From the IMG/VR virus record IMGVR_UViG_2700988815_000001, positions 1 through 64,000 of that record: a DNA stretch of 64,000 nt. One strand, 5' to 3'. This stretch comes from a virus (taxonomy: Duplodnaviria; Caudoviricetes). Positions within the stretch are counted from its first letter, which is position 1, and each line of letters starts with the position of its first letter. The position numbers and the translations under genes are program-made. Below, piece by piece: positions 24,218 through 63,283 of this stretch. Under the pieces are notes generated by a model. That model saw nothing but the letters and a program-made list of their open reading frames with translations. It was not told where the DNA came from and did no database searches.

Positions 24218-24278
24218 ATAGTACCACACTTTTCCCAGTTGTCAAGACCTTGACGTGGGAGCAAACGTCTGGTAGTAT
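24218..24278. promoter_or_regulatory. Back-to-back divergent sigma70-like promoters
   Basis: Minus TTGACA-16-TACTAT; plus TTGACG-17-TAGTAT; joined by the GTCAAGACCTTGAC palindrome. Confidence 0.7.
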
Positions 24279-24290
24279 GGAAAAACTGAT

Positions 24291-24600
24291 GGAGAGATAT
24301 GTCTGCGAAAGCATCACTCACCGGCCATCAGGGAACACGACTATGAAGAGTTGCTACTTGGTCAAGCTGAAGTCTAATCTGTTTATAGCGTAGCGGTTAC
24401 GCCTTCGGGTGGAATGAACAGAGCCTGAGCGAAAGCTCTCCTGCCCATGCAGGCCAATCACGATCTCAAGCGTCATGAGAATGTGGAGAAGGTAGACTCA
24501 AGGTTACGTCTTAGGCAGATTCTTTCTGTATGGCGTTTCCTTGGGTTAAGTCTACCTTCCAATACGAAACTCAGCGTCATGAGCAGATCAAGAACAATAA
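24291..24600 (+). ncRNA. Candidate structured ncRNA, copy A (paralog of 59860-60130)
   Basis: Conserved blocks and compensatory stem changes relative to copy B. Confidence 0.7.
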
Positions 24601-24682
24601 CCAACACATACAACCACCTAAAACATTGATATATAAGGAGATTGTATGAAATAACCCCAAATAATATAAGGAATCCTTACCC

Positions 24683-24877
24683 ATGAGATGCAAGTGCTGC
24701 GATGTACCGCTGATCAATAATGATAGTCCCGCGTGGAATAAGCTCGCACAGAAAGAGGAAGACCTCTGTAGTGTGTGCAGAAATCTTGTATACAATTCAT
24801 ACACAGAACGAGAGTATTGCTGCGGACGGTATCCAGTTGACGGTGTTACTGGCCCTGTACCAATCAAAGAAAATTAA
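24683..24877 (+). CDS. Small Zn-finger-like protein
   Basis: CKCC...CSVC; AAGGA RBS. Confidence 0.65.
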   Translation: MRCKCCDVPLINNDSPAWNKLAQKEEDLCSVCRNLVYNSYTEREYCCGRYPVDGVTGPVPIKEN

Positions 24878-25357: not shown

Positions 25358-25434
25358 TGGACGTTGGCCGACCGGCGCGAGGCAACAGGCTTTTAACCTG
25401 TATTAACTGAGTTCGATTCTCAGGCGTTCAACCA
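25358..25434 (+). tRNA. tRNA-Lys(TTT)
   Basis: Cloverleaf; ACAGG-ctTTTaa-CCTGT; CCA. Confidence 0.9.
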
Positions 25435-25438
25435 ATAT

Positions 25439-25527
25439 AGAGAGTTACGCAGCTAGGTGGCTGCACTTGTTTGCTAAACAAAGTGATCGAGAAATCGGTT
25501 GGGGATCAAGACCTCAGCTCTCTGCCA
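25439..25527 (+). tRNA. tRNA-Ser(GCT)
   Basis: ttGCTaa loop; long variable arm; GCCA. Confidence 0.8.
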
Positions 25528-25641
25528 GAATGATCGTGTCGCTCACGATATGACAAACGACTACATCGTGAGGGTTCTGCGATGTTCTTGAGCCAGATGG
25601 CAATCGGGGTAAGAGTCCCCACAGGCAACCTCTAAATTTAT

Positions 25642-25731
25642 GGCGGGTAGTGATCATGGCGATCAAGCTGTTTAGAAAGCAGTACCATTGGCTAGTACCC
25701 GGTGAGAGTTCGATTCCCTTACCCGCCTCCA
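25642..25731 (+). tRNA. tRNA-Ser(AGA), atypical
   Basis: GCTGT-ttAGAaa-GCAGT; long variable region; TCCA. Confidence 0.65.
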
Positions 25732-25737
25732 ACACAA

Positions 25738-25814
25738 CGGCAGTTGAAGCAACTGGTAATCTTCGTCAGCTCAAACCTGATGTATTCTGAGTTCGAATCT
25801 CAGACTGCCGACCA
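25738..25814 (+). tRNA. tRNA-Leu(CAA), short variable loop
   Basis: GTCAG-ctCAAac-CTGAT; ACCA. Confidence 0.8.
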
Positions 25815-25820
25815 AGCAAA

Positions 25821-25894
25821 GCTTCTTTAGTTTAATGGTAGAACGCCATCCTTACACGGTGGCTGCGGTGGTTCGATTCCATCAAGAAGCACCA
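25821..25894 (+). tRNA. tRNA-Val(TAC)
   Basis: ctTACac loop; ACCA. Confidence 0.92.
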
Positions 25895-26040
25895 AACATC
25901 ATAAAGTAATCGCGTTAGGGTTCGATTCCCTCCCAAGCCTCGGTGGACACCTGAAAGGGTGTGGTTCACAAAACGGATGAAACGTGACTAGAGAGTTGAC
26001 AAAGGATGGCCATCTGGAGTAGACTCTCGGTACTAACAAT

Positions 26041-26117
26041 TGGGGATTAGAATAGATGGCCTAATTCATCGGTCTTTGACACCGACAGCACTGGTTCGAA
26101 TCCAGTATCCCCTGCCA
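26041..26117 (+). tRNA. tRNA-Gln(TTG)
   Basis: TCGGT-ctTTGac-ACCGA; GCCA. Confidence 0.92.
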
Positions 26118-26136
26118 AACACAATAGGAGTATCAA

Positions 26137-26697
26137 ATGATTTACCTACGCTTCCTAGCACTATTCACAGTTGACATTCTGCTGACGATCCTTACGGTTG
26201 TTCCAGCAGCAATCATTGTTCCACTCTTCACAAGAGCACAGCAATGGGGTCAGAAAGAGTACACATGGGGCTGGCTGTGGGGTACATACGACAATCCGCC
26301 ACAAGGTGATGAAGGGTACTGCCGCAAGCGTGCTCTCTTCCTGAACGAGCTTACGGGCTTCAAGGGCTATATCAACCGAGTGATGTGGATGTTGAGAAAC
26401 CCTCTGTATGGGCTTGCCAAACGAATGGCATTGCCTTATAGTGAGACAGCAACATTGGTGATCACAGGTAATCCTGATATCTCTGACAAGTATCGAATTC
26501 CCGGCAGCATGATGGCCCGTCTGTACGAAGGCAACAAGCTGGTCGGTTTTGAGTTCTACATGGTCAAGCCTTGGAGTGCGAATAGAAACATTCGTTGCCG
26601 ACTAGGCTGGAAGATGACCACAGAGAAATACAAAGAAAAGGGCTTTGCCCAATTCGTCGGTACGTGCAATCCATTCGATGGATACGGCGACGATTGA
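26137..26697 (+). CDS. Hypothetical membrane-associated protein inside the tRNA array
   Basis: AGGAG RBS; N-terminal TM helix; WMLRNPLYG motif. Confidence 0.85.
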   Translation: MIYLRFLALFTVDILLTILTVVPAAIIVPLFTRAQQWGQKEYTWGWLWGTYDNPPQGDEGYCRKRALFLNELTGFKGYINRVMWMLRNPLYGLAKRMALPYSETATLVITGNPDISDKYRIPGSMMARLYEGNKLVGFEFYMVKPWSANRNIRCRLGWKMTTEKYKEKGFAQFVGTCNPFDGYGDD

Positions 26698-26788
26698 CAG
26701 AACATACCGCGCCTTGGTATGATCACCAAACCAACTGGTGATGTGACGCTCAGGAGACAGCGTGTTATAAGTGTCTCCCACGAATTAT

Positions 26789-26865
26789 AGGGGTGAAGTG
26801 TAATGGCTATGCACGCGGGATTCCAAATCCTTGCAGACTGGGTTCGATTCCTAGCACGCCTGCCA
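26789..26865 (+). tRNA. tRNA-Trp(CCA)
   Basis: ttCCAaa loop; GCCA. Confidence 0.85.
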
Positions 26866-26870
26866 AATAT

Positions 26871-26951
26871 GGTGTTATTGGTGACAGTCTTCTAGAGGGC
26901 TGGTTGTTGTGATGATTCTAGAGCGGGCAACATTTGTGCTTGACACCGCCA
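26871..26951 (+). ncRNA. tRNA-like RNA (acceptor stem and CCA, non-canonical body)
   Basis: GGTGTTA/TGACACC-GCCA; no TTCG T-loop. Confidence 0.55.
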
Positions 26952-26958
26952 ATCAAAT

Positions 26959-27035
26959 GGCCTTATAGTGTAAGGGAATTAGCACATCATCCTTCTAAGT
27001 TGATAGATAAGGTTCGAATCCTTATAGGGCTACCA
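26959..27035 (+). tRNA. tRNA-Arg(TCT)
   Basis: ctTCTaa loop; ACCA. Confidence 0.9.
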
Positions 27036-27056
27036 GAAAATAAATTGAAATAGTTG

Positions 27057-27085
27057 TTGACAACTGACTAAAGTCATGGTTTAAT
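27057..27085 (+). promoter_or_regulatory. Internal promoter of the tRNA array
   Basis: TTGACA-17-TTTAAT. Confidence 0.6.
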
Positions 27086-27117
27086 ACTCATACAGTTTAA
27101 CAAAAGGAGAGAATGAA

Positions 27118-27246
27118 ATGGCACAGCGTCCATACGATGCAACAAAGGAACACGCTCCACTGGATCGTACTCCAAAGAATAAAGGTCGTCACCCTAACAA
27201 ACGGGTGAAGAATAGTAAGCACCCAGTGACTGGGAAAAGCTACTAA
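27118..27246 (+). CDS. Small basic protein (42 aa)
   Basis: AAGGAG RBS; MAQRPYDATKEHAPLDRTPKNKGRHPNKRVKNSKHPVTGKSY. Confidence 0.65.
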   Translation: MAQRPYDATKEHAPLDRTPKNKGRHPNKRVKNSKHPVTGKSY

Positions 27247-27254
27247 GAATTAAT

Positions 27255-27331
27255 GCTCTTGTCGTCTAAAGGTATAGGATGGCTGACTTTCAATCAGTTG
27301 ATGTTGGGTTCGAGTCCCACCAAGAGTACCA
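27255..27331 (+). tRNA. tRNA-Glu(TTC)
   Basis: ctTTCaa loop; ACCA. Confidence 0.9.
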
Positions 27332-27335
27332 ATAT

Positions 27336-27411
27336 GGCTTATGTTTCCTCTGGGAAGGAAGGCACACTGTCTATGTGTCAGTTGAGGGTTCGAATCCCTT
27401 ATAGGTCGCCA
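27336..27411 (+). tRNA. tRNA-Asp(GTC)
   Basis: ctGTCta loop; GCCA. Confidence 0.85.
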
Positions 27412-27471
27412 AGCGCAGTCGTCATCGCAGACTTAAAATGGGATCGTCTCGGGCACGTTATAGCTCCCAAT

Positions 27472-27546
27472 GCCCTTGTCATATAAAGGCTATTATGCCT
27501 GTTTTGTAATCAGGTTATTGCGGTTCGAATCCGTACTGGGGCACCA
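27472..27546 (+). tRNA. tRNA-Thr(TGT)
   Basis: ttTGTaa loop; ACCA. Confidence 0.88.
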
Positions 27547-27552
27547 AATTCT

Positions 27553-27627
27553 TGCCGGATAGTATAGTGGTCTGTACACTCGCCTGATAAGCGATAGGTG
27601 AAAGTTCGATTCTTTCTCTGGCAACCA
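27553..27627 (+). tRNA. tRNA-Ile(GAT)
   Basis: ctGATaa loop; ACCA. Confidence 0.9.
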
Positions 27628-27633
27628 AATGAT

Positions 27634-27711
27634 ATAGCTGTGGCCCGAACTGGACTAGGCACCATCCTACGAAGTTGGTAAATGCAGGTTCGAATCCTGT
27701 CAGCTATGCCA
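27634..27711 (+). tRNA. tRNA-Arg(ACG)
   Basis: ctACGaa loop; GCCA. Confidence 0.9.
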
Positions 27712-27717
27712 AACAAA

Positions 27718-27797
27718 TGCGAAGGCGTTAAGACGGCTGGAACTGTCACTCGGCTCATACCCGAATACAAGAGGTTCGATTCCTCCTTTCGCAACCA
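27718..27797 (+). tRNA. tRNA-Met(CAT)
   Basis: ctCATac loop; ACCA; Met versus Ile2 identity not resolved. Confidence 0.8.
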
Positions 27798-27866
27798 AAC
27801 GCTGGGTGCTCCCCACGTACAGCCAGATAGAGTGTGCTGTATAAATATAGTCTCTATCAGAACAAT

Positions 27867-27943
27867 TGGTAATAGTCTCCCACGGCGGGGGTCTGCGGCT
27901 GTTAACCGCAAGTTGCTTGGTTCGATTCCAAGATTACCAGCCA
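27867..27943 (+). tRNA. tRNA-Asn(GTT)
   Basis: TGCGG-ctGTTaa-CCGCA; GCCA. Confidence 0.85.
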
Positions 27944-27950
27944 ATTTAAT

Positions 27951-28036
27951 TCCGTGTGTAGGGGAACTGGTAGACCCACCTGACTGTTAATCAGGCGCTA
28001 ACGCAACTGTAGGTTCGAAGCCTACCACCGGAGCCA
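27951..28036 (+). tRNA. tRNA-Asn(GTT) second copy, long variable arm
   Basis: CCTGA-ctGTTaa-TCAGG; 13-nt variable region; GCCA. Confidence 0.8.
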
Positions 28037-28041
28037 AACAA

Positions 28042-28128
28042 GGTCGTTGTAGAGATAGATGGCTACTATCAGGGTGCTGTAACCACCCCGCTTCATGCTA
28101 GAGGTTCAATTCCATCCTTCGACCACCA
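28042..28128 (+). tRNA. tRNA-Tyr(GTA)
   Basis: GGGTG-ctGTAac-CACCC; ACCA. Confidence 0.8.
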
Positions 28129-28154
28129 ATTTACAAATGACCTAACAAGTCAAT

Positions 28155-28228
28155 CTCTCGGAAGCGTTACGGTAGCGTACTTTGTTTGGAACGAAGTGGC
28201 GGTGGTTCGACTCCACCCCGAGTGACCA
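28155..28228 (+). tRNA. tRNA-Pro(TGG)
   Basis: ttTGGaa loop; ACCA. Confidence 0.88.
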
Positions 28229-28371
28229 ATTTACTGAAAAGGATTGTGCAGATTTGGTAAGTCGCAATTCGTCCCAGCCACGAATATAACCTGATCGGTA
28301 TGCTAGTGGGAGAAAGACTACGTGCAGGAATGAAGTGATCGCACGGGTCAACTGGCAGTAGACGCGATTAT

Positions 28372-28445
28372 GGGCTGTAAGAATTATGATAGTTCGCTAC
28401 GCTTGCACCGTAGAAGCCGGGGTTTGACTCCCCGACGGTCCACCA
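28372..28445 (+). tRNA. tRNA-Ala(TGC)
   Basis: CTACG-ctTGCac-CGTAG; G3:U70; ACCA. Confidence 0.88.
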
Positions 28446-28461
28446 AATTATAGGAGACAAT

Positions 28462-28614
28462 ATGAAAGTCCGAGTTAAGCAACGTGCAAAACGATTCAGT
28501 AGTATGTCGTGCAGATGCTGTACCAGAATTCATTTCAAAGAGGAAGCTATTGACAAGCAAGCCCTCAAAGAAGCTCTTGAAGAAATCCACACTCAAGAAG
28601 AAGAGTGGGTTTAA
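28462..28614 (+). CDS. Small protein (50 aa) inside the tRNA array
   Basis: AGGAG RBS; MKVRVKQRAKRFSSMSCRCC...EEEWV. Confidence 0.65.
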   Translation: MKVRVKQRAKRFSSMSCRCCTRIHFKEEAIDKQALKEALEEIHTQEEEWV

Positions 28615-28623
28615 AGATTTAAT

Positions 28624-28698
28624 GGTGAGGCCGTTGTCACTGGCTGACACTTCCGGCTGTGACCCGGTTGTTGGAGTTCGAATCTCCACCTCACACCA
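28624..28698 (+). tRNA. tRNA-His(GTG)
   Basis: ctGTGac loop; ACCA. Confidence 0.8.
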
Positions 28699-28704
28699 AA
28701 CAAT

Positions 28705-28781
28705 GCTCCTGTAGGCCAACTGGTAGAGTCAGTGCGCTTAGAACGCATAAAGTCTCGGTTCGAATCCGAGTGGGAGTACCA
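28705..28781 (+). tRNA. tRNA-Leu(TAG), short variable loop
   Basis: GTGCG-ctTAGaa-CGCAT; ACCA. Confidence 0.9.
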
Positions 28782-28838
28782 AATGTAGCCGCAAGGCAAG
28801 TAGTCTGCTAGACCCGGACTTAATAATGGGTGACGAAT

Positions 28839-28913
28839 GTGTCTTTGTCCGAGCGGCTGAGGTAGCGGATTGCAAACCCGTTTAGGTTGGTTCAACTCCA
28901 ACAAGATACTCCA
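28839..28913 (+). tRNA. tRNA-Cys(GCA)
   Basis: ttGCAaa loop; U73; CCA. Confidence 0.88.
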
Positions 28914-28919
28914 AATTCT

Positions 28920-28995
28920 GCGTGATTCGTATAGAGGTCTAATACTCTCGGCTTCCACCCGAGGAACCACGGTTCGACTCCGTGATCCCGCACCA
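28920..28995 (+). tRNA. tRNA-Gly(TCC)
   Basis: CTCGG-ctTCCac-CCGAG; ACCA. Confidence 0.9.
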
Positions 28996-29000
28996 ATTAT

Positions 29001-29076
29001 GCACTCTAAGCTGACTCGGTAGTAGCGACGGCCTGAAAAGTCGTAGGACTTGGTTCGACTCCAAGAGATTGCACCA
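29001..29076 (+). tRNA. tRNA-Phe(GAA)
   Basis: ACGGC-ctGAAaa-GTCGT; ACCA. Confidence 0.9.
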
Positions 29077-29167: not shown

Positions 29168-29233
29168 AACACAGACGACTTAACCAATCTTACATTGCTA
29201 CGTGCAATCATTGTAAGTCTGTCTTGTCTCGAC

Positions 29234-29261
29234 AACCCTCTTCTTGAGGGTTTTCTTGTTT
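29234..29261 (+). terminator. Terminator after the tRNA array
   Basis: AACCCTC-ttctt-GAGGGTT-TTCTTGTTT. Confidence 0.75.
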
Positions 29262-36451: not shown

Positions 36452-37368
36452 CTGACCAAACAAAAGCAAAGCGTCGTCTAACAGACATTAGCTTTGAACA
36501 TGAAGGTGCTCACGTAGCCCTTGTTAGTAAGACACAAGGTGGCCCAGCTAACGGTGTGACAACCCTTATCACGAAAGCCACAAATCAAATCGACAAAGAC
36601 CTCATTGAGAAGGCTACAACAGTAACCGTCGAAATGCAGTTCCCCGAATTCCTCCGTAAGTTCTTTGGACTGTACTGGGAAGATGCAGAAGTTCTCTCTT
36701 CTGTAATGGGCTATGGACGTACAGAATATCCTGATACTTCTGAGAAGGATTATATCGACTCCCGAGTTGAATCCATCCATATCATGAAAGCTGTATACCG
36801 TGCCGAAAACTTGGAGAAGGCACTAGCTGACCTAACTCCAGATCAATCGCTGGCTCTTTTGAAAGATCAAGAGATGCTGGAAAAAGCTCTGGAGTCTCTG
36901 CCAGAACAAACCAAATCTAAACATGAGGACACTCCCTTGGAACAAATCCTGAAATCCGCTCACCTAGAAGCTCTGGCTGATGCCGTTGCTATCGAAAAAG
37001 CTGCCGGTGTTGCTGCTGTTGCAGAAGTTCAAAAAGCTCTTGACGCTCAAGCAGAAGTGCTAAAGTCTGTTCAAGCAGAAGTTGAAACTTTCAAAGCTGC
37101 CGCTGCTACCGCTAAAGTTGAAGCTCGCAAGTCTGCACTTGTTGACGCTAAAGTTCCTGCCGAAAAACTGGAAGCAGTTCTGAAATCGCTTACTGCTCTA
37201 GACGACGAAGCATTTACCGCTCAGGTAGACTTGCTGAAATCTATGGCATCTGCTGTTGATAATTCTGAAATGATGCAAGAGGCTGGCGTTGCTGGTGCTG
37301 GTGCAGAGTCTCAAGAAGAAGTTGATCGCACAACTGCAATCCTTAAAGCCCGTTACGGCGTTAAGTAA
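36448..37368 (+). CDS. Capsid scaffolding/assembly protein
   Basis: Ala/Glu/Lys coiled coil upstream of the capsid genes. Confidence 0.7.
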   Translation: MTDQTKAKRRLTDISFEHEGAHVALVSKTQGGPANGVTTLITKATNQIDKDLIEKATTVTVEMQFPEFLRKFFGLYWEDAEVLSSVMGYGRTEYPDTSEKDYIDSRVESIHIMKAVYRAENLEKALADLTPDQSLALLKDQEMLEKALESLPEQTKSKHEDTPLEQILKSAHLEALADAVAIEKAAGVAAVAEVQKALDAQAEVLKSVQAEVETFKAAAATAKVEARKSALVDAKVPAEKLEAVLKSLTALDDEAFTAQVDLLKSMASAVDNSEMMQEAGVAGAGAESQEEVDRTTAILKARYGVK

Positions 37369-51429: not shown

Positions 51430-52164
51430 GTGTCTGAACTCAATCCCTTTGTAGAAGAAGAGTTCCTGAATGTGGCACGTTCGCGTGTCACAGAACAGTT
51501 CAAGAACAAACGAATTTATGACAAGTATTTGCAACTCCTGCTTTCGGGTAAGGTTGAATTGCAGAAGGTCATTAAAGATACCATGCAACTCCGTTCTTTG
51601 GATACTGCTGTTGGTGCTCAGTTGGATGTTATCGGTGAGATTGTAGGACGCCCACGCGGTCTTGTAACCTCCGATATCTTCTACTACTTTGGTTTTGAAG
51701 GTGCCCCACAGGGTGAATCTTTCAGCTCCACAACTGACGCCACTGCCGGTGGACAATGGTACTCTCTTGACGCTCCAGTTGGTATCAGCCGTGAGCCAAG
51801 TGACGAAGAGTATCGTTTGATCCTCAAAGCGAAGATCATTAAAAACAGAACAATGGCAAGACCAGAAGACGTAATCGCCGCATACAAGTTTTTGTTCGGT
51901 GCGTCTCAAGTAACTATCACTGAGTTGGCTCCCGCTGAAGTGCGTATTGGTATTGGTAAAATCCTAACCAACGTGGAACGTGGCTTGCTGTTCGACTTGG
52001 GTGGTGCTGGTCAGTTGCTGCCTAAGCCTGCTGGTGTGAGCTATGCCTACACTGAATATCAAGCAGGAAGGGTGTTCGCCACAGACGGATTTCCCGGTGC
52101 TCAAGGTACTGGTGATCTGAATAATCCATCTGTAGGTGGATTCCTCTCTAACCTCATTACATAA
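51430..52164 (+). CDS. Baseplate wedge protein (DUF2612-like)
   Basis: LDTAVGAQLDVIGEIVG, DEEYR and LPKPAGV motifs. Confidence 0.85.
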   Translation: MSELNPFVEEEFLNVARSRVTEQFKNKRIYDKYLQLLLSGKVELQKVIKDTMQLRSLDTAVGAQLDVIGEIVGRPRGLVTSDIFYYFGFEGAPQGESFSSTTDATAGGQWYSLDAPVGISREPSDEEYRLILKAKIIKNRTMARPEDVIAAYKFLFGASQVTITELAPAEVRIGIGKILTNVERGLLFDLGGAGQLLPKPAGVSYAYTEYQAGRVFATDGFPGAQGTGDLNNPSVGGFLSNLIT

Positions 52165-59363: not shown

Positions 59364-59756
59364 CTATTTTGTATTCATTCCGCCGTACACGATTGGGATG
59401 CCTCCGCTGATGCGTGTACGTTGCACATAAGACGTGAACCGCTCAGAACGACTCTGCCTTGCATTGATACCGCCAACTGTTGTGGGAGCAAGCCTGATCG
59501 GGTTCATGCCACGATCTTGCAGACAGCTACGTGTCACTTGACGGAATGGAAGCTCCAGTCCCTTGAACTGTTTGAGGCAGTTGGAACACTCAATCTTGCC
59601 AGTGTTCAGGCTGACGGTCTTTAGCGTGCATGCACATGTACGGCAGCCAAGCTTACCCTTGAAGTGGCGGATCGCAATACGTTCCTTCTTCTTGAGCTTG
59701 CACACAGCTCCAACGTCCAGTGTAGGCAGTGCATCTATATAGGCTTGATCGTACAT
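59364..59756 (-). CDS. Zn-binding basic hypothetical protein
   Basis: CRTC...CSNC. Confidence 0.75.
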   Translation of the reverse strand: MYDQAYIDALPTLDVGAVCKLKKKERIAIRHFKGKLGCRTCACTLKTVSLNTGKIECSNCLKQFKGLELPFRQVTRSCLQDRGMNPIRLAPTTVGGINARQSRSERFTSYVQRTRISGGIPIVYGGMNTK

Positions 59757-59786
59757 CGTGGTGTCCTCGTTTGTTTGTGTTGGCTC

Positions 59787-59846
59787 ATCTTATACGAAAA
59801 CTGAATCGAGTCAAGCCCTTGACAGCAGATTTATTCATGATACCAT
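59787..59846. promoter_or_regulatory. Back-to-back divergent sigma70-like promoters
   Basis: Minus TTGACT-16-TAAGAT; plus TTGACA-16-TACCAT; GTCAAGCCCTTGAC palindrome. Confidence 0.7.
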
Positions 59847-59859
59847 TCGTCACGTCGTA

Positions 59860-60130
59860 GGGGAGATATGTCGAACACACTCACCGACCTACGGGAACAC
59901 GCCCTATGAAGAGGAAGCCACAGGGGCAGGTGAACTTGAACTGGATTATACCGTGGCGGCGACCTCTTAGGAGGGAATGATCTGGGCCTGTGACTGATGA
60001 ACTCAGCAGCACATGAAAGGTAGAGTAGAGGTTGATCGAGGCAGGTAGTTCCTGTATGATCAGCCTTGGGACAACTTTACCTGATCTCTCCGAATCTAGC
60101 AGCACAGTGAAGATCAAAAGCATAACAGCA
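59860..60130 (+). ncRNA. Candidate structured ncRNA, copy B (paralog of 24291-24600)
   Basis: Conserved blocks and covarying stems relative to copy A. Confidence 0.7.
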
Positions 60131-60165
60131 ACAACATCTAGATCAAAAGCTTATAAGGAGGTGGT

Positions 60166-60474
60166 ATGTGTATTGTAGTGAACAAATACAAAGTGAATAT
60201 GGATGATCCTGATATTGTGTACATAGGTCGCGGGAGCAAATGGGGTAATCCGTACAGCCACAAAGACGGAACTCGGGCACAATACCGTGTGTCAACCGTT
60301 CATCAGGCGATTATGGAATATCGCAAGTACCTTTGGTCGCAAATCTCTGATGGGTTTATCACACTGGAAATGCTGAAAGAGCTTGACGGAAAACGCCTCG
60401 CCTGTTATTGTACTCCCAATCCCTGTCATGGGAACATTATCAAACAAGCAGTCCAATGGGCTAAGGGGCAATGA
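60166..60474 (+). CDS. DUF4326-family protein
   Basis: VYIGRGSKWGNPY and LACYC.P..CHG motifs. Confidence 0.88.
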   Translation: MCIVVNKYKVNMDDPDIVYIGRGSKWGNPYSHKDGTRAQYRVSTVHQAIMEYRKYLWSQISDGFITLEMLKELDGKRLACYCTPNPCHGNIIKQAVQWAKGQ

Positions 60475-61103
60475 TGAGTCGTGTAGTAATTCTTGGTGGC
60501 GGTACATTCAATCATGTGGCTTGCCATCTGGCGTTGGCCGCTCCAGCCTTTGGTGGGACAGCCAAGCAACTCAACAAGATGTTCGCTGATAACGGCACGC
60601 TTGAGCCTTACCTCGCCCTGACGAAGATGGCAGACCCTGCCAGTCATATGATCACTAACGATCACGTTGCTCATTTCATTGAGCTGGCCCTTGGGGACGA
60701 AGACGTTAAGGCCATCATCATGAACGCAGCCATCTGTGATTTTGAAATGGATAACCCCAGCGAGGCTTCTCGCCTGTCCAGTTCTCAGGACTATCAGGTG
60801 ACGCTGCGAGGGATCAACACTAAGATCATGGCTTCCATCAAACAGAAGCGTCCAGATATCATCGTGGCTGGCTTCAAGACCACACACGGTGCAAGCAAGG
60901 TCGAGCAGGTGGCTAAAGCCTTCTCATCTATGCACAACTCGGGGCTTGACATGGTGTTGGCAAATGATGTAGAGACACGAAACAATATCCTTGTTACAAA
61001 GGATTTGACAATACAGACTGGCAGCCGTGAGTTTCTGCTTGACCAGTTGATGTGTACTACTGTAATCTACTACAACATGAAGCAATGGAATCTTGAAGAA
61101 TGA
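60471..61103 (+). CDS. CoaB-like (phosphopantothenate-cysteine ligase/DFP domain) protein
   Basis: GGGT, IMNAAICDF, VAGFK and VLAND motifs. Confidence 0.75.
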   Translation: MMSRVVILGGGTFNHVACHLALAAPAFGGTAKQLNKMFADNGTLEPYLALTKMADPASHMITNDHVAHFIELALGDEDVKAIIMNAAICDFEMDNPSEASRLSSSQDYQVTLRGINTKIMASIKQKRPDIIVAGFKTTHGASKVEQVAKAFSSMHNSGLDMVLANDVETRNNILVTKDLTIQTGSREFLLDQLMCTTVIYYNMKQWNLEE

Positions 61104-63254: not shown

Positions 63255-63283
63255 AAGCCCTGCCCTCACCGGCGGGGCTTTTT
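63255..63283 (+). terminator. Intrinsic terminator
   Basis: AAGCCCTGCC...GGCGGGGCTT-TTT. Confidence 0.85.

What the first reader, a model, noticed from the sequence alone, without database searches (positions are those of the whole stretch)
59860..60130. Structured ncRNA copy B at the second strand-switch point
Seen: paralog of 24291-24600 with stems GCCAC 59917-21 / GTGGC 59953-57, CTGGAT 59941-46 / ATCTGG 59980-85, AGGTAGAGT 60018-26 / ACTTTACCT 60074-82, GAGGTTGATC 60028-37 / GATCAGCCTT 60058-67, and a possible closing helix GGGGAGAT 59860-67 / ATCTCTCC 60084-91. Each copy has its own short direct repeat flanking the long hairpin: CTCA(A)GCGTCATGAG twice in A and AGCAGCACA(G)TGAA twice in B. 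Inference: a conserved scaffold with copy-specific repeated segments could mean two specificities (guide-like or processing sites).
Basis: partly seen in the sequence, partly recalled or inferred. Interest (0 to 1): 0.82.

Follow-up and report, generated by a model that had tools for sequence, protein, structure and literature searches.

The report
Self-repeating structured phage leader RNA
This Pseudomonas phage starts each of its two long rightward gene blocks with a copy of an uncatalogued, knotted RNA of about 260-300 bases, in which a short stretch is written twice, always identically within a copy but differently between phages; what the RNA does is still unknown.

Summary
Copy B (about 59853-60111, + strand) and copy A (about 24285-24583) are the only two members in the 98,287-bp Otagovirus-like genome. 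Each begins 1-3 nt after the predicted start of a sigma70 promoter with an extended -10. No Rfam family matches. I collected 40 distinct homologues from phage and metagenome contigs.

Covariation supports a 5' domain with two pseudoknots: 27 of 30 pairs change on both sides. It also supports a long hairpin, P5: 14 of 20 pairs. The "closing helix" occurs in 2 of 39 elements.

The main result concerns the repeats. In 39 of 39 full-length elements an 8-13 nt stretch before P5 recurs exactly after it, in 17 versions, some differing by one letter changed in both copies. No complement exists in the element or the genome.

Best guess (about 0.3): the first repeat, as RNA, pairs with the template DNA of the second and anchors an R-loop at a replication origin, as in ColE1 RNA II or T4 oriF. 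Rivals are put-like antitermination and a protein scaffold. The scan had already noted copy A (e1-6203620).

The parts
59819..59846 (+). Sigma70-type promoter of copy B: TTGACA, 16 nt, TACCAT, with TG before the -10. The predicted start is about 59853-59854.
   Evidence: 10 of 12 matches, TG. In one search, 27 of 34 distinct upstream sequences of homologues have at least 9 of 12 matches with TG, and the -10 ends 13-17 nt before the invariant GAGA.
59787..59814 (-). Back-to-back divergent promoter-like site (TTGACT, 16 nt, TAAGAT). The two -35 boxes form GTCAAGCCCTTGAC.
   Evidence: GTCAA lies just upstream of the + strand -35 in 22 of 34 distinct upstream sequences.
59855..59894 (+). P1 hairpin (59855-61 pairs with 59888-94). 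It encloses the near-invariant internal loops GGAGATATGTC (59862-72) and CACTCACCG (59878-86).
   Evidence: helix 1: 7 pairs, 6 with changes on both sides, 99.6% paired. Invariant columns.
59901..59927 (+). Pseudoknot Pa: GCCC 59901-04 pairs with GGGC 59924-27, across the invariant TATGAAGAG (59905-13) and the 5' strand of P2.
   Evidence: helix 2: 4 of 4 pairs change on both sides, 88.6% paired. This helix was not part of the model that made the alignment.
59917..59957 (+). P2 (59917-21 / 59953-57) and P2b (59929-31 / 59950-52). The loop holds the 5' strand of P3.
   Evidence: helices 3 and 4: 5 of 5 and 3 of 3 pairs change on both sides.
59941..59985 (+). Pseudoknot P3: CTGGAT 59941-46 pairs with ATCTGG 59980-85. 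It spans hairpin P4 (CCTC 59963-66 / GAGG 59971-74).
   Evidence: helix 6 (6 of 6 pairs, 97.1% paired, not in the model) and helix 7 (P4, 3 of 4 pairs).
59996..60017 (+). Repeat unit R1: a constant half (GATGAACTC) followed by the variable word VAR1, AGCAGCACA, at 60005-60013.
   Evidence: In 16 of 17 repeat versions R1 folds as a local hairpin (dG -2.9 to -6.6 kcal/mol). The window's copy B is the exception (-0.7). There pairs VAR1 with GTGACTG at 59990-96 instead.
60018..60082 (+). P5 long hairpin, with a conserved internal loop (GAGGC ... GTATGA here; TTAGGC / GTATGG in most homologues) and the conserved CCTTGGGA.
   Evidence: 20 pairs, 14 with changes on both sides, covariation score 0.544 against 0.227 in shuffles.
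60090..60111 (+). Repeat unit R2: a constant half (CCGAATCT) followed by VAR2, AGCAGCACA, at 60098-60106, 93 nt after VAR1.
   Evidence: R2 is predicted to be essentially single-stranded in 13 of 17 versions (dG -1.7 or weaker).
60107..60165 (+). A-rich, G-poor tract. It is followed by a Shine-Dalgarno AAGGAGG (60155-61) and the ATG at 60166 of the first ORF (60166-60474, DUF4326).
   Evidence: 27 A in the 60 nt after VAR2, and 28 of 34 homologues have at least 24 A of 60. PF14216, E 5e-21.
24250..24583 (+). Paralogous copy A: promoter TTGACG, 17 nt, TAGTAT (24250-24278), then the element from about 24285 to 24583. VAR1 is at 24469-79 and VAR2 at 24573-83 (AGCGTCATGAG). Copy A carries two extra variable hairpins that copy B lacks.

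Best explanation
SHOWN. Copy B is one of two paralogous members of an uncatalogued family of 5'-terminal structured RNAs in Otagovirus, Flaumdravirus and related uncultured phages. The RNA starts at, or 1-3 nt before, its first helix, directly after a host-type sigma70 promoter at a point where transcription diverges.

Its order is: P1 with two near-invariant internal loops; a compact double-pseudoknot core (Pa, P2, P2b, P3, P4); optional variable hairpins; repeat unit R1; a long hairpin P5; repeat unit R2; an A-rich tract; then the first gene. The variable word in R1 is exactly the same as that in R2 in every element. It differs freely between elements, and nothing complementary to it exists in the element or in this phage genome.

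INFERRED (my best guess, about 0.3). The only strand that always co-varies with the word without a third mutation is the element's own DNA. R1 as RNA is complementary to the template strand of R2. I propose the following sequence of events. RNA polymerase transcribes R2. By then P5 has folded and brought R1 next to the upstream edge of the transcription bubble. R1 pairs with the template strand at R2, stops the DNA duplex from closing, and lets the nascent RNA stay hybridised through the A/T-rich tract as a persistent R-loop.

At two transcription-divergence nodes of a lytic phage, the likeliest use of such an R-loop is to open and prime a replication origin. ColE1 RNA II does this, and so do the T4 oriF and oriG transcripts. 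The conserved 5' core would then gate or assist this step, by binding polymerase or a replication factor, or by folding. The same RNA-DNA contact could instead serve pausing or termination.
For: (1) The family is a real RNA.
- 5' domain: 30 pairs in 7 helices, 93.1% of cells paired against 67.0% in shuffles. 27 pairs change on both sides. The covariation score is 0.622 against 0.178, with 0 of 500 shuffles as high, and sliding the partners gives at most 0.122.
- The two pseudoknots were not in the model that made the alignment.
- P5.
- G-U pairs occur in the + sense, and a promoter lies 13-17 nt before the invariant GAGA.

(2) The repeats obey a self-identity rule.
- 39 of 39 full-length distinct elements share an exact 8-13 nt word before and after P5. 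The script found it in 33. The other 6 were mis-anchored and were checked directly (11 nt each).
- There are 17 versions. Some are single-letter variants changed in both copies: AGCG/AGCT/AGTG-TCATGAG, ATTTT/ATTCT-GGATAG, A/G-TTTTGGATAG.
- When R1 of one element is compared with R2 of another version, the median shared word is 6 nt, and it reaches 8 nt in 7% of 1384 comparisons.

(3) No third partner was found.
- Neither word has an exact complement or extra copy in the 98,287-bp genome.
- No consistent complementary site lies in the elements.

(4) R1 is displayed in a hairpin in 16 of 17 versions, while R2 is open in 13 of 17.

(5) Position in the genome.
- There are exactly two copies per genome here. 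Five further records hold two each: L001; L011+L014; L012+L035; L025+L058; L072+L077.
- Of 48 + strand sigma70-like promoters scoring at least 10 of 12, one (59819, copy B) carries the element. Copy A's promoter scores 9 of 12 and is not among the 48. Both element-bearing promoters sit at strand-switch points.
- Cumulative GC skew bends at about 23 kb and has its minimum at about 55-59 kb.

(6) The first downstream gene differs between family members, so the element is tied to the node, not to a gene.

(7) 28 of 34 elements have at least 24 A in the 60 nt after R2.

(8) Precedent, from passages read.
- T4 oriF and oriG each consist of a promoter plus an A+T-rich unwinding element. Their transcripts form persistent R-loops, and the active origins lie where transcription switches strand (PMC3016281, sections 5-6).
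- ColE1 RNA II is a folded host-polymerase transcript whose structure decides whether a persistent hybrid forms (PMC5043065, section 10).

(9) The phage encodes a family A DNA polymerase at 67539-68357.
Against: - Nothing here shows an R-loop, a primer or an origin. The model was built after seeing the repeat rule, so that rule is not an independent test of it.
- GC skew and strand switching are confounded with gene orientation.
- The intricate, near-invariant 5' core is not needed by a simple R-loop origin. It fits an RNA that binds a conserved machine such as RNA polymerase better.
- The tract after R2 is A-rich RNA on a T-rich template, which makes a weak hybrid. In several B-type elements the first gene starts only about 40 nt after R2 and the tract is not A-rich (6 of 34).
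- No RNase H (PF00075) or flap-nuclease N-domain (PF02739) gene was found in the phage, so host enzymes would be needed.
- In this very copy B, R1 does not form the usual hairpin.
- The detail that an upstream G-rich loop of RNA II contacts a C-rich template stretch is recalled from memory. It was not found in the passages I read: 'G-rich' and 'C-rich' each had 0 occurrences.
- The leftward units leaving the same nodes carry no element.
Confidence: 0.3

Rival explanations
1. The RNA acts in cis on the transcribing polymerase, as HK022 putL and putR do. The nascent 5' core binds RNA polymerase and makes it resistant to pausing and termination across the long rightward units. Those units hold a tRNA array, other non-coding RNAs and internal terminators.
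For: - There are two diverged copies per genome, each right after an early host-type promoter, as with putL and putR behind PL and PR (PMC9378689, Introduction).
- The 5' core is near-invariant even in distant A/T-rich phages, as expected for a partner as conserved as RNA polymerase.
- Clear hairpin-plus-T-run terminators lie inside both units. By my own loose scan they are at 29251, 33018, 38884, 42673 and 58549, and at 63279, 66071, 71790 and 74787.
- Copy A heads an untranslated array of 20 tRNA genes.
- An earlier agent on copy A reached the same comparison (e1-6203620).
Against: - There is no sequence or structural homology to put. Put is about 70 nt with two stem-loops and a short triplex. 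This RNA is 260-330 nt with two pseudoknots.
- Dozens of further strong sigma70-like promoters lie inside the same units (48 on the + strand), so read-through from the node promoters is not obviously needed.
- The 24-kb leftward unit has no such element.
- The model gives no reason for VAR1 to equal VAR2 at single-letter resolution, or for its hypervariability.
- No -10-like hexamer with A at position 2 and T at position 6 lies in the invariant GAGATATGTC (read by eye), unlike putL.
Confidence: 0.2
2. The RNA is a scaffold or decoy. A dimeric or two-site protein (phage or host) binds the two identical words. Alternatively an endonuclease cuts at the same place in R1 and R2 and releases the roughly 100-nt P5 unit. 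The second version is the first reader's 'processing sites'; type III antitoxin repeats are cut in this way.
For: - Two identical sites flank a hairpin in 39 of 39 elements.
- Each site has a conserved half (CGA..CTC) next to the variable half.
- B-type words often contain GGA, reminiscent of Rsm/CsrA sites. That motif is recalled from memory.
- L004 and L077 carry a third, degenerate R-like unit.
Against: - A protein would have to re-adapt to each of 17 versions, including single-letter changes.
- Alternatively the changed positions are not contacted by the protein, and then they should drift independently in R1 and R2. They do not.
- A and B words assort independently between genomes, so two co-evolving proteins per phage would be needed.
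- No conserved neighbouring gene was found.
- The A-type words lack GGA.
Confidence: 0.15
3. The RNA is a riboswitch-like or attenuator leader. The double-pseudoknot core senses a metabolite or factor, and R1, P5 and R2 form the expression platform. The constant half of R1 could pair either with the 3' part of VAR1 (a local hairpin) or with the identical 3' part of VAR2 (a long-range helix). That choice would control Rho loading on the C/A-rich tract or translation of the first gene.
For: - It has a 5'-UTR position, pseudoknotted core and invariant unpaired nucleotides.
- In leaders with mutually exclusive pairings, the competing segments are direct repeats (general knowledge of attenuators).
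- The tract after R2 is G-poor and unstructured.
Against: - The first downstream genes are unrelated between copies and between phages, unlike riboswitches.
- There is no terminator-like hairpin with a T run after P5 (0 found).
- The alternative-pairing idea needs identity only in the 3' part of the word. Identity is strictest in the 5' (loop) part.
- The start-to-stop spacing of the only conserved ATG...TGA is in no fixed frame (15, 9 and 6 of 30), so there is no leader peptide.
Confidence: 0.08
4. The RNA is a guide with two specificities. The repeated words base-pair with targets elsewhere in the phage or in the host.
For: The words are copy-specific, hypervariable, 8-13 nt long and displayed on a constant scaffold.
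Against: - There is no exact complement in the phage genome.
- Near matches in the window are mostly near shuffle level. For the B repeat there were 3 hits against 2.54 expected. For the A repeat there were 14 against 6.72, reached by 1 of 100 shuffles, and the 12 outside the element carry 2 mismatches with no pattern of place.
- Single-letter variation between phages of the same host species argues against a conserved host target.
- No effector gene is conserved nearby.
- Two identical guides in one RNA are not explained.
Confidence: 0.05

Closest known systems
HK022 putL / putR RNAs (cis-acting antitermination; PMC9378689, passages read)
   Same: Two diverged copies per phage genome, each downstream of an early host-polymerase promoter. 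Both are nascent structured RNAs with no dedicated neighbouring protein gene.
   Different: Put is about 70 nt with two stem-loops and a minor-groove triplex. This RNA is 260-330 nt with two pseudoknots, a long hairpin and internal self-identical repeats. There is no sequence similarity. Both copies here point the same way. No binding to polymerase has been shown.
ColE1 RNA II (pre-primer forming a persistent RNA-DNA hybrid; PMC5043065, section 10, read)
   Same: A long folded host-polymerase transcript whose structure decides whether the nascent RNA stays on the template. No dedicated initiator protein is needed. The proposed contact of an upstream RNA segment with downstream template DNA is the same idea, although that detail for RNA II is recalled and was not seen in the text.
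   Different: No homology. No antisense RNA I-like partner was found. Here the upstream segment is an exact copy of the downstream one, 8-13 nt long and hypervariable. The transcript continues into genes. Origin function is untested.
T4 oriF / oriG origin transcripts (PMC3016281, sections 5-6, read)
   Same: A promoter plus a downstream A/T-rich stretch, located where transcription switches strand and nucleotide bias shifts. The transcript doubles as an mRNA leader. There are several such nodes per genome.
   Different: The T4 origins need only about 100 bp and no specific RNA structure, and the unwinding element can be swapped. Here about 260-300 nt of conserved structure lies between the promoter and the A-rich tract.
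Lambda nutL / nutR (boxA + boxB). Features recalled from memory; no paper read.
   Same: Two sites per phage behind early promoters. Each has a conserved half plus a phage-specific hairpin half. The constant half of R1 in L060 (CGCTCTCAA) resembles boxA CGCUCUUA, which is recalled.
   Different: The nut sites of one phage share the same boxB because one N protein reads both. Here the two copies in one phage carry different words, and the duplication is inside each element. No N-like gene was identified.
GOLLD / ROOL large ornate RNAs of phages (seen only in the listing and abstract)
   Same: Elaborate phage-borne non-coding RNAs of unknown function, often near tRNA genes.
   Different: No Rfam match to either. 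This RNA is much smaller and strictly promoter-proximal, and there is no evidence that it forms multimers.

Membership tests
Any Rfam 15 family | Covariance-model score at or above the family's gathering threshold | tested here: not met
   the 15 matches in the window are all tRNA. (permissive, 59700-60300): only PVT1_7 at 12.7 bits against a threshold of 80, E 5.5.
HK022 put RNA | About 70 nt, two stem-loops, triplex in stem I | tested here: not met
   The element is about 260 nt (copy B) to 330 nt, with 7 covarying helices in the 5' domain alone, two of them pseudoknots.
HK022 put RNA | Two copies behind the early promoters | tested here: met
HK022 put RNA | Binds the beta' zinc-binding domain and suppresses terminators far downstream | not testable with these tools
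   Needs transcription assays.
R-loop origin transcripts (ColE1 RNA II, T4 oriF/oriG) | Host-type promoter followed by an A/T-rich stretch at a transcription-divergence or skew-shift node | tested here: met
   The evidence is confounded by gene orientation, and 6 of 34 homologues are not A-rich after R2.
R-loop origin transcripts (ColE1 RNA II, T4 oriF/oriG) | Persistent RNA-DNA hybrid used as a primer; autonomous replication of the fragment | not testable with these tools
   No DNA or RNA run could be laid on the stretch (one search listed none).
R-loop origin transcripts (ColE1 RNA II, T4 oriF/oriG) | Phage or host RNase H to trim the hybrid; a polymerase able to extend an RNA primer | tested here: inconclusive
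   No PF00075 or PF02739 in the phage. A family A polymerase is present. Host enzymes were not examined.
   Host genomes were not searched.
Leader-peptide attenuator | Conserved short ORF in a fixed frame | tested here: not met
   the distance from the conserved ATG to the conserved TGA is 0, 1 or 2 mod 3 in 9, 6 and 15 of 30 distinct sequences.
Riboswitch | Association with a consistent set of downstream genes; a terminator or SD-sequestering platform | tested here: not met
   First genes differ. No terminator-like site was found next to either copy.
CRISPR-like or type III antitoxin repeat array | Whole repeat units identical and tandem; a nuclease gene nearby | tested here: not met
   Only the 8-13 nt half is identical, and the constant halves differ consistently (GATCTCA against GAAACTC). 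Neighbours have no known family apart from DUF4326 and a DFP-like domain.

The most novel reading that the evidence does not exclude
The hypervariable word is a private address. Each element's RNA displays a copy of a word from its own DNA and can open only that node, by pairing with the template strand of the second copy. Replication (or transcription) start would then be licensed by an RNA reading its own gene. The rapid, concerted drift of the word keeps co-infecting relatives, and the phage's other node, from cross-activating or competing. This would be an RNA-DNA analogue of iteron/initiator incompatibility, without any protein.
Probability: 0.15. Interest if true: 0.9.

Novelty: new variant of a known kind. 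Interest (0 to 1): 0.72.

Why it matters
If it is only what is shown, this is a well-supported new family of ornate phage RNAs: a double pseudoknot plus a long hairpin, 40 distinct members, and not in Rfam. It sits at the very start of the two main rightward gene blocks of phages that are being developed against kiwifruit canker.

The self-identity rule of the repeats is a clean, testable genetic signature, because one can change one copy, the other, or both. I know of no described bacterial or phage RNA with this rule.

If the R-loop reading is right, it would locate the unknown replication origins of this phage group. It would also give a second natural example, after ColE1, of an RNA fold that decides whether a transcript stays on its template. 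Here the contact would be sequence-addressed, and so could in principle be reprogrammed.

Tried and rejected
- Rfam at gathering and at permissive thresholds: nothing.
- Single-sequence folding: weak z-scores.
- Leader peptide from the conserved ATG to the conserved TGA: rejected because the frame is not kept.
- Complement or extra copy of the repeat words in the window and the genome: none exact, and near matches are mostly near shuffle level. The A-repeat count of 14 hits against 6.72 expected was reached by 1 of 100 shuffles.
- Complementary partner inside the elements: no consistent site.
- All-against-all column covariation for extra long-range helices. Only the known helices came out, plus one 3-pair stack (P2b loop with P5a) that conflicts with P5a. 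I discounted it as a lineage correlation.
- Local hairpins in both repeats: true for R1 and mostly not for R2, so 'twin hairpin' is only half right.
- Kissing of palindromic loops between R1 and R2: the loops are not generally self-complementary (by eye).
- tRNA anticodon-loop pairing and Shine-Dalgarno-like readings of the words: no consistent pattern (by eye).
- DnaA boxes near either node: none.
- A conserved neighbouring protein: the flanking proteins have no informative family, and the first genes differ in distant members.
- Exact-motif scan of 185,579 bacterial and archaeal species genomes: 0 hits. This is an exact pattern, so diverged copies would be missed.
- RNA evidence: no RNA holder was listed, and read laying was therefore not used.
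- Literature: searches listed no paper describing this RNA. The PhiPsa374 paper (PMC9796965) has 0 occurrences of 'promoter', 'non-coding', 'intergenic' and 'origin of replication' in its main text. Its supplementary gene table, and the put paper's supplementary alignment of ten put RNAs, could not be seen and might bear on annotation and on the comparison with put.
- Rows dropped: L003 and most of the 56 loci were chance pattern hits with no profile match. L071 (cut by the contig end) and L079 and L059 (truncated) were left out of the repeat counts. For alignment A5 I gave 30 of the 39 full-length elements and left out near-duplicates (L063, L066, L004, L072, L024, L067, L034, L069, L073). 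For A3 I gave 30 of 39.
- My terminator scan is loose: 62 hits on the + strand and 94 on the - strand, most of them false. Only the clear G+C-rich hairpins with a T run are cited.
Full report
WHAT THE WINDOW IS. The region matches Pseudomonas syringae phages of the genus Otagovirus. The copy-B stretch has 98% identity to phiPsa300 and psageK4 and 86-88% to PN09 and PE09, with weaker matches to Flaumdravirus (KIL) phages. The whole genome is 98,287 bp with direct terminal repeats.

OBSERVATION. The stretch 59860-60130 and the stretch 24291-24600 are homologous (73% mean column identity over 461 columns). They are the only two family members in the genome. No Rfam family matches either: one search returns only tRNAs, and one search returns only noise.

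Each copy lies directly behind a sigma70-type promoter with an extended -10:
- Copy B: TTGACA at 59819, 16 nt, TACCAT ending at 59846.
- Copy A: TTGACG at 24250, 17 nt, TAGTAT ending at 24278.

A second promoter-like site points the other way, so both copies sit at divergent promoter pairs. Across homologues, 27 of 34 distinct upstream sequences have a promoter with at least 9 of 12 matches and TG, whose -10 ends 13-17 nt before the invariant GAGA. The RNA therefore starts at, or 1-3 nt before, its first helix.

HOMOLOGUES. Two exact-pattern scans of IMG/VR gave 16 and 56 loci. Most of the second set were chance hits. One scan of metagenome contigs gave 21 loci. The same motif has 0 hits in one genome for each of 185,579 prokaryote species.

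A profile search over everything fetched gave 50 hits and 40 distinct elements. Among them are three A/T-rich, distantly related ones (L019, L023, L039, at 40-55 bits). Apart from a tRNA gene and one short weak match, these have no named relative in the phage collection.

Six records hold two copies each: the window; L001; L011+L014; L012+L035; L025+L058; L072+L077.

STRUCTURE. I built a covariance model of the 5' domain with only the nested helices P1, P2, P2b and P4. I re-aligned 47 hits, 37 of them distinct. I then counted a structure that adds the two pseudoknots read by eye.

The result was as follows:
- 30 pairs in 7 helices, with 93.1% of cells paired against 67.0% in shuffles.
- 27 pairs with changes on both sides.
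- Covariation score 0.622 against 0.178, with 0 of 500 shuffles as high.
- Slid controls scored at most 0.122.

The pseudoknots were not part of the model, yet Pa is 88.6% paired and P3 is 97.1% paired, and every one of their pairs changes on both sides.

The 3' hairpin P5 has 20 predicted pairs, 14 of them compensatory, and is 94.6% paired against 78.6% in shuffles.

The fifth, the closing helix, is 8 bp only in the window's copy B and its PN09 orthologue (2 of 39). It also overlaps P1.

Long invariant unpaired runs mark the core: GAGATATGTC, CTCACCG, TATGAAGAG and GGAA. The conserved ATG and TGA inside these runs do not define an ORF, because their spacing is 0, 1 or 2 mod 3 in 9, 6 and 15 of 30 distinct sequences.

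THE REPEATS. Each element has two units, R1 before P5 and R2 after it. Each unit has a constant half followed by a variable word. In most homologues the constant half is ACGATCTCA in R1 and ACGAAACTC in R2.

In 39 of 39 full-length distinct elements the word is identical in R1 and R2 over 8-13 nt. My script found this in 33. Six were mis-anchored and were checked directly, each with ATTTTGGATAG twice. The two copies lie 93-117 nt apart.

There are 17 versions. Close relatives differ by one letter changed in both copies: AGCGTCATGAG, AGCTTCATGAG and AGTGTCATGAG; ATTTTGGATAG and ATTCTGGATAG; ATTTTGGATAG and GTTTTGGATAG. When R1 of one element is compared with R2 of an element of another version, they share a median of 6 nt, and 8 or more in 7% of 1384 comparisons.

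The A and B words of one genome are unrelated and assort independently. AGCGTCATGAG in copy A goes with AGCAGCACA, ATTTTGGATAG or ATTTAGGATA in copy B, depending on the genome.

R1 folds into a local hairpin in 16 of 17 versions, with the 5' part of the word in the loop. The window's copy B is the exception. R2 is essentially open in 13 of 17. Identity is strictest in the loop part and decays in the 3' part.

Neither of the window's words has a complement or a third copy in the genome. No consistent complementary site exists in the elements.

WHAT THIS IMPLIES. A word that is free to be anything but must match its twin, letter for letter, behaves like the two sides of a base pair. A protein reader would need to re-adapt 17 times. 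A third nucleic-acid partner would need three coordinated changes and would be visible.

The one partner that follows automatically is the element's own DNA. R1 as RNA is complementary to the template strand under R2. That is the contact I recall being proposed for ColE1 RNA II, where an upstream loop holds the template so that the nascent RNA stays hybridised. I could verify only the general mechanism in the text I read, not that detail.

CONTEXT.
- Of 48 + strand sigma70-like promoters scoring at least 10 of 12, only the one at 59819 (copy B) carries the element. Copy A's promoter scores 9 of 12 and is not among the 48.
- Both element-bearing promoters lie where transcription switches strand.
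- Cumulative GC skew falls to about 23 kb, is flat to about 58 kb with its minimum near 55-59 kb, and then rises. This is confounded with gene orientation.
- The 60 nt after R2 hold at least 24 A in 28 of 34 elements.
- The first downstream gene varies. It is DUF4326 behind the window's copy B, a small Cys-rich protein behind copy A, a 'DNA/RNA-binding protein' in KIL1, and an HExxH protein and a 225-aa protein in the distant contigs.

T4 oriF and oriG are exactly a promoter plus an A/T-rich element, forming a persistent R-loop at nodes of divergent transcription. The phage has a family A DNA polymerase 7 kb downstream of copy B. It has no RNase H or flap nuclease recognisable by Pfam.

WEIGHING. 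The R-loop or origin reading explains the repeat rule, the node position and the indifference to the downstream gene. It was framed after seeing the rule, and it does not need the ornate, invariant 5' core.

A put-like action on RNA polymerase explains the core, the two copies and the many internal terminators. It does not explain the repeats, the absence of an element from the leftward units, or the dozens of internal promoters.

A protein scaffold or processing unit gets 0.15, a riboswitch or attenuator 0.08, and a trans guide 0.05. The rest stays unknown.

NOVELTY. The family is absent from Rfam 15. I found no description of it in five literature searches or in the main text of the PhiPsa374 genome paper. 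An earlier agent of this scan had already reported copy A as an uncatalogued leader RNA with put as the closest known (e1-6203620). What is added here:
- the double-pseudoknot model, with controls;
- the 39-of-39 self-identity rule with concerted single-letter changes;
- the asymmetry of R1 and R2;
- the rejection of the closing helix, the leader ORF and a genomic guide target;
- the RNA-to-own-template reading.

Noticed in passing
window 24630-24690; also A-type homologues L007, L012, L013, L004, L058, L050 and L001:1100-1160: Behind A-type elements a strong Shine-Dalgarno (AAGGAGATTGT) is followed by a mini-ORF of a start codon, one or two codons and TAA (ATGAAATAA in the window). Only then comes the SD and ATG of the 64-aa Cys-rich protein (24683-24877). 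I saw this in 8 of 8 A-type sequences visible.
   Followed up: partly
L004:8263-8464 and L077:7237-7437: Between R1 and P5 these two elements carry an insertion (GAAACTCATACGAGATAG) that looks like a third, degenerate repeat unit of another version (compare ATCTACGAGA). This hints that repeat units are exchanged or duplicated.
   Followed up: no
L079:332-416: A truncated relative that keeps only P1 with its conserved loops and CTATGAAGA, then breaks off (44.5 bits).
   Followed up: no
L058:1338-1491: An extra small hairpin (GTCCCTCGGGAT) is inserted in the linker between P1 and pseudoknot Pa, showing that this linker tolerates insertions.
   Followed up: no
L019:3018-3098: This unnamed A/T-rich contig has no named relative, yet it carries a tRNA-Gly gene 98.8% identical to that of the KIL phages, about 1 kb downstream of its copy of the element.
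   Followed up: no
window 25358-29076: ARAGORN tRNA genes where Rfam's tRNA model passes 15. A clear terminator-like hairpin follows the array at about 29230-29258.
   Followed up: no
G000:C1 about 78-299 and 97839-98060: The same hairpin-plus-T-run hits recur at both genome ends, in line with the direct terminal repeats that the record is classed with.
   Followed up: no
window 37037-37047 and 51764-51774: The same 11-mer CTCTTGACGCT (+ strand) occurs twice inside the structural-gene block. It is the one-mismatch complement of copy A's repeat word and contains a TTGACG -35-like box. I took it as promoter-like and as coincidence.
   Followed up: partly
window 60471-61103: The second gene behind copy B has a DFP-like C-terminal domain (PF04127, E 4.3e-11) and a weak sub-threshold HopBA1-like hit.
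   Followed up: no
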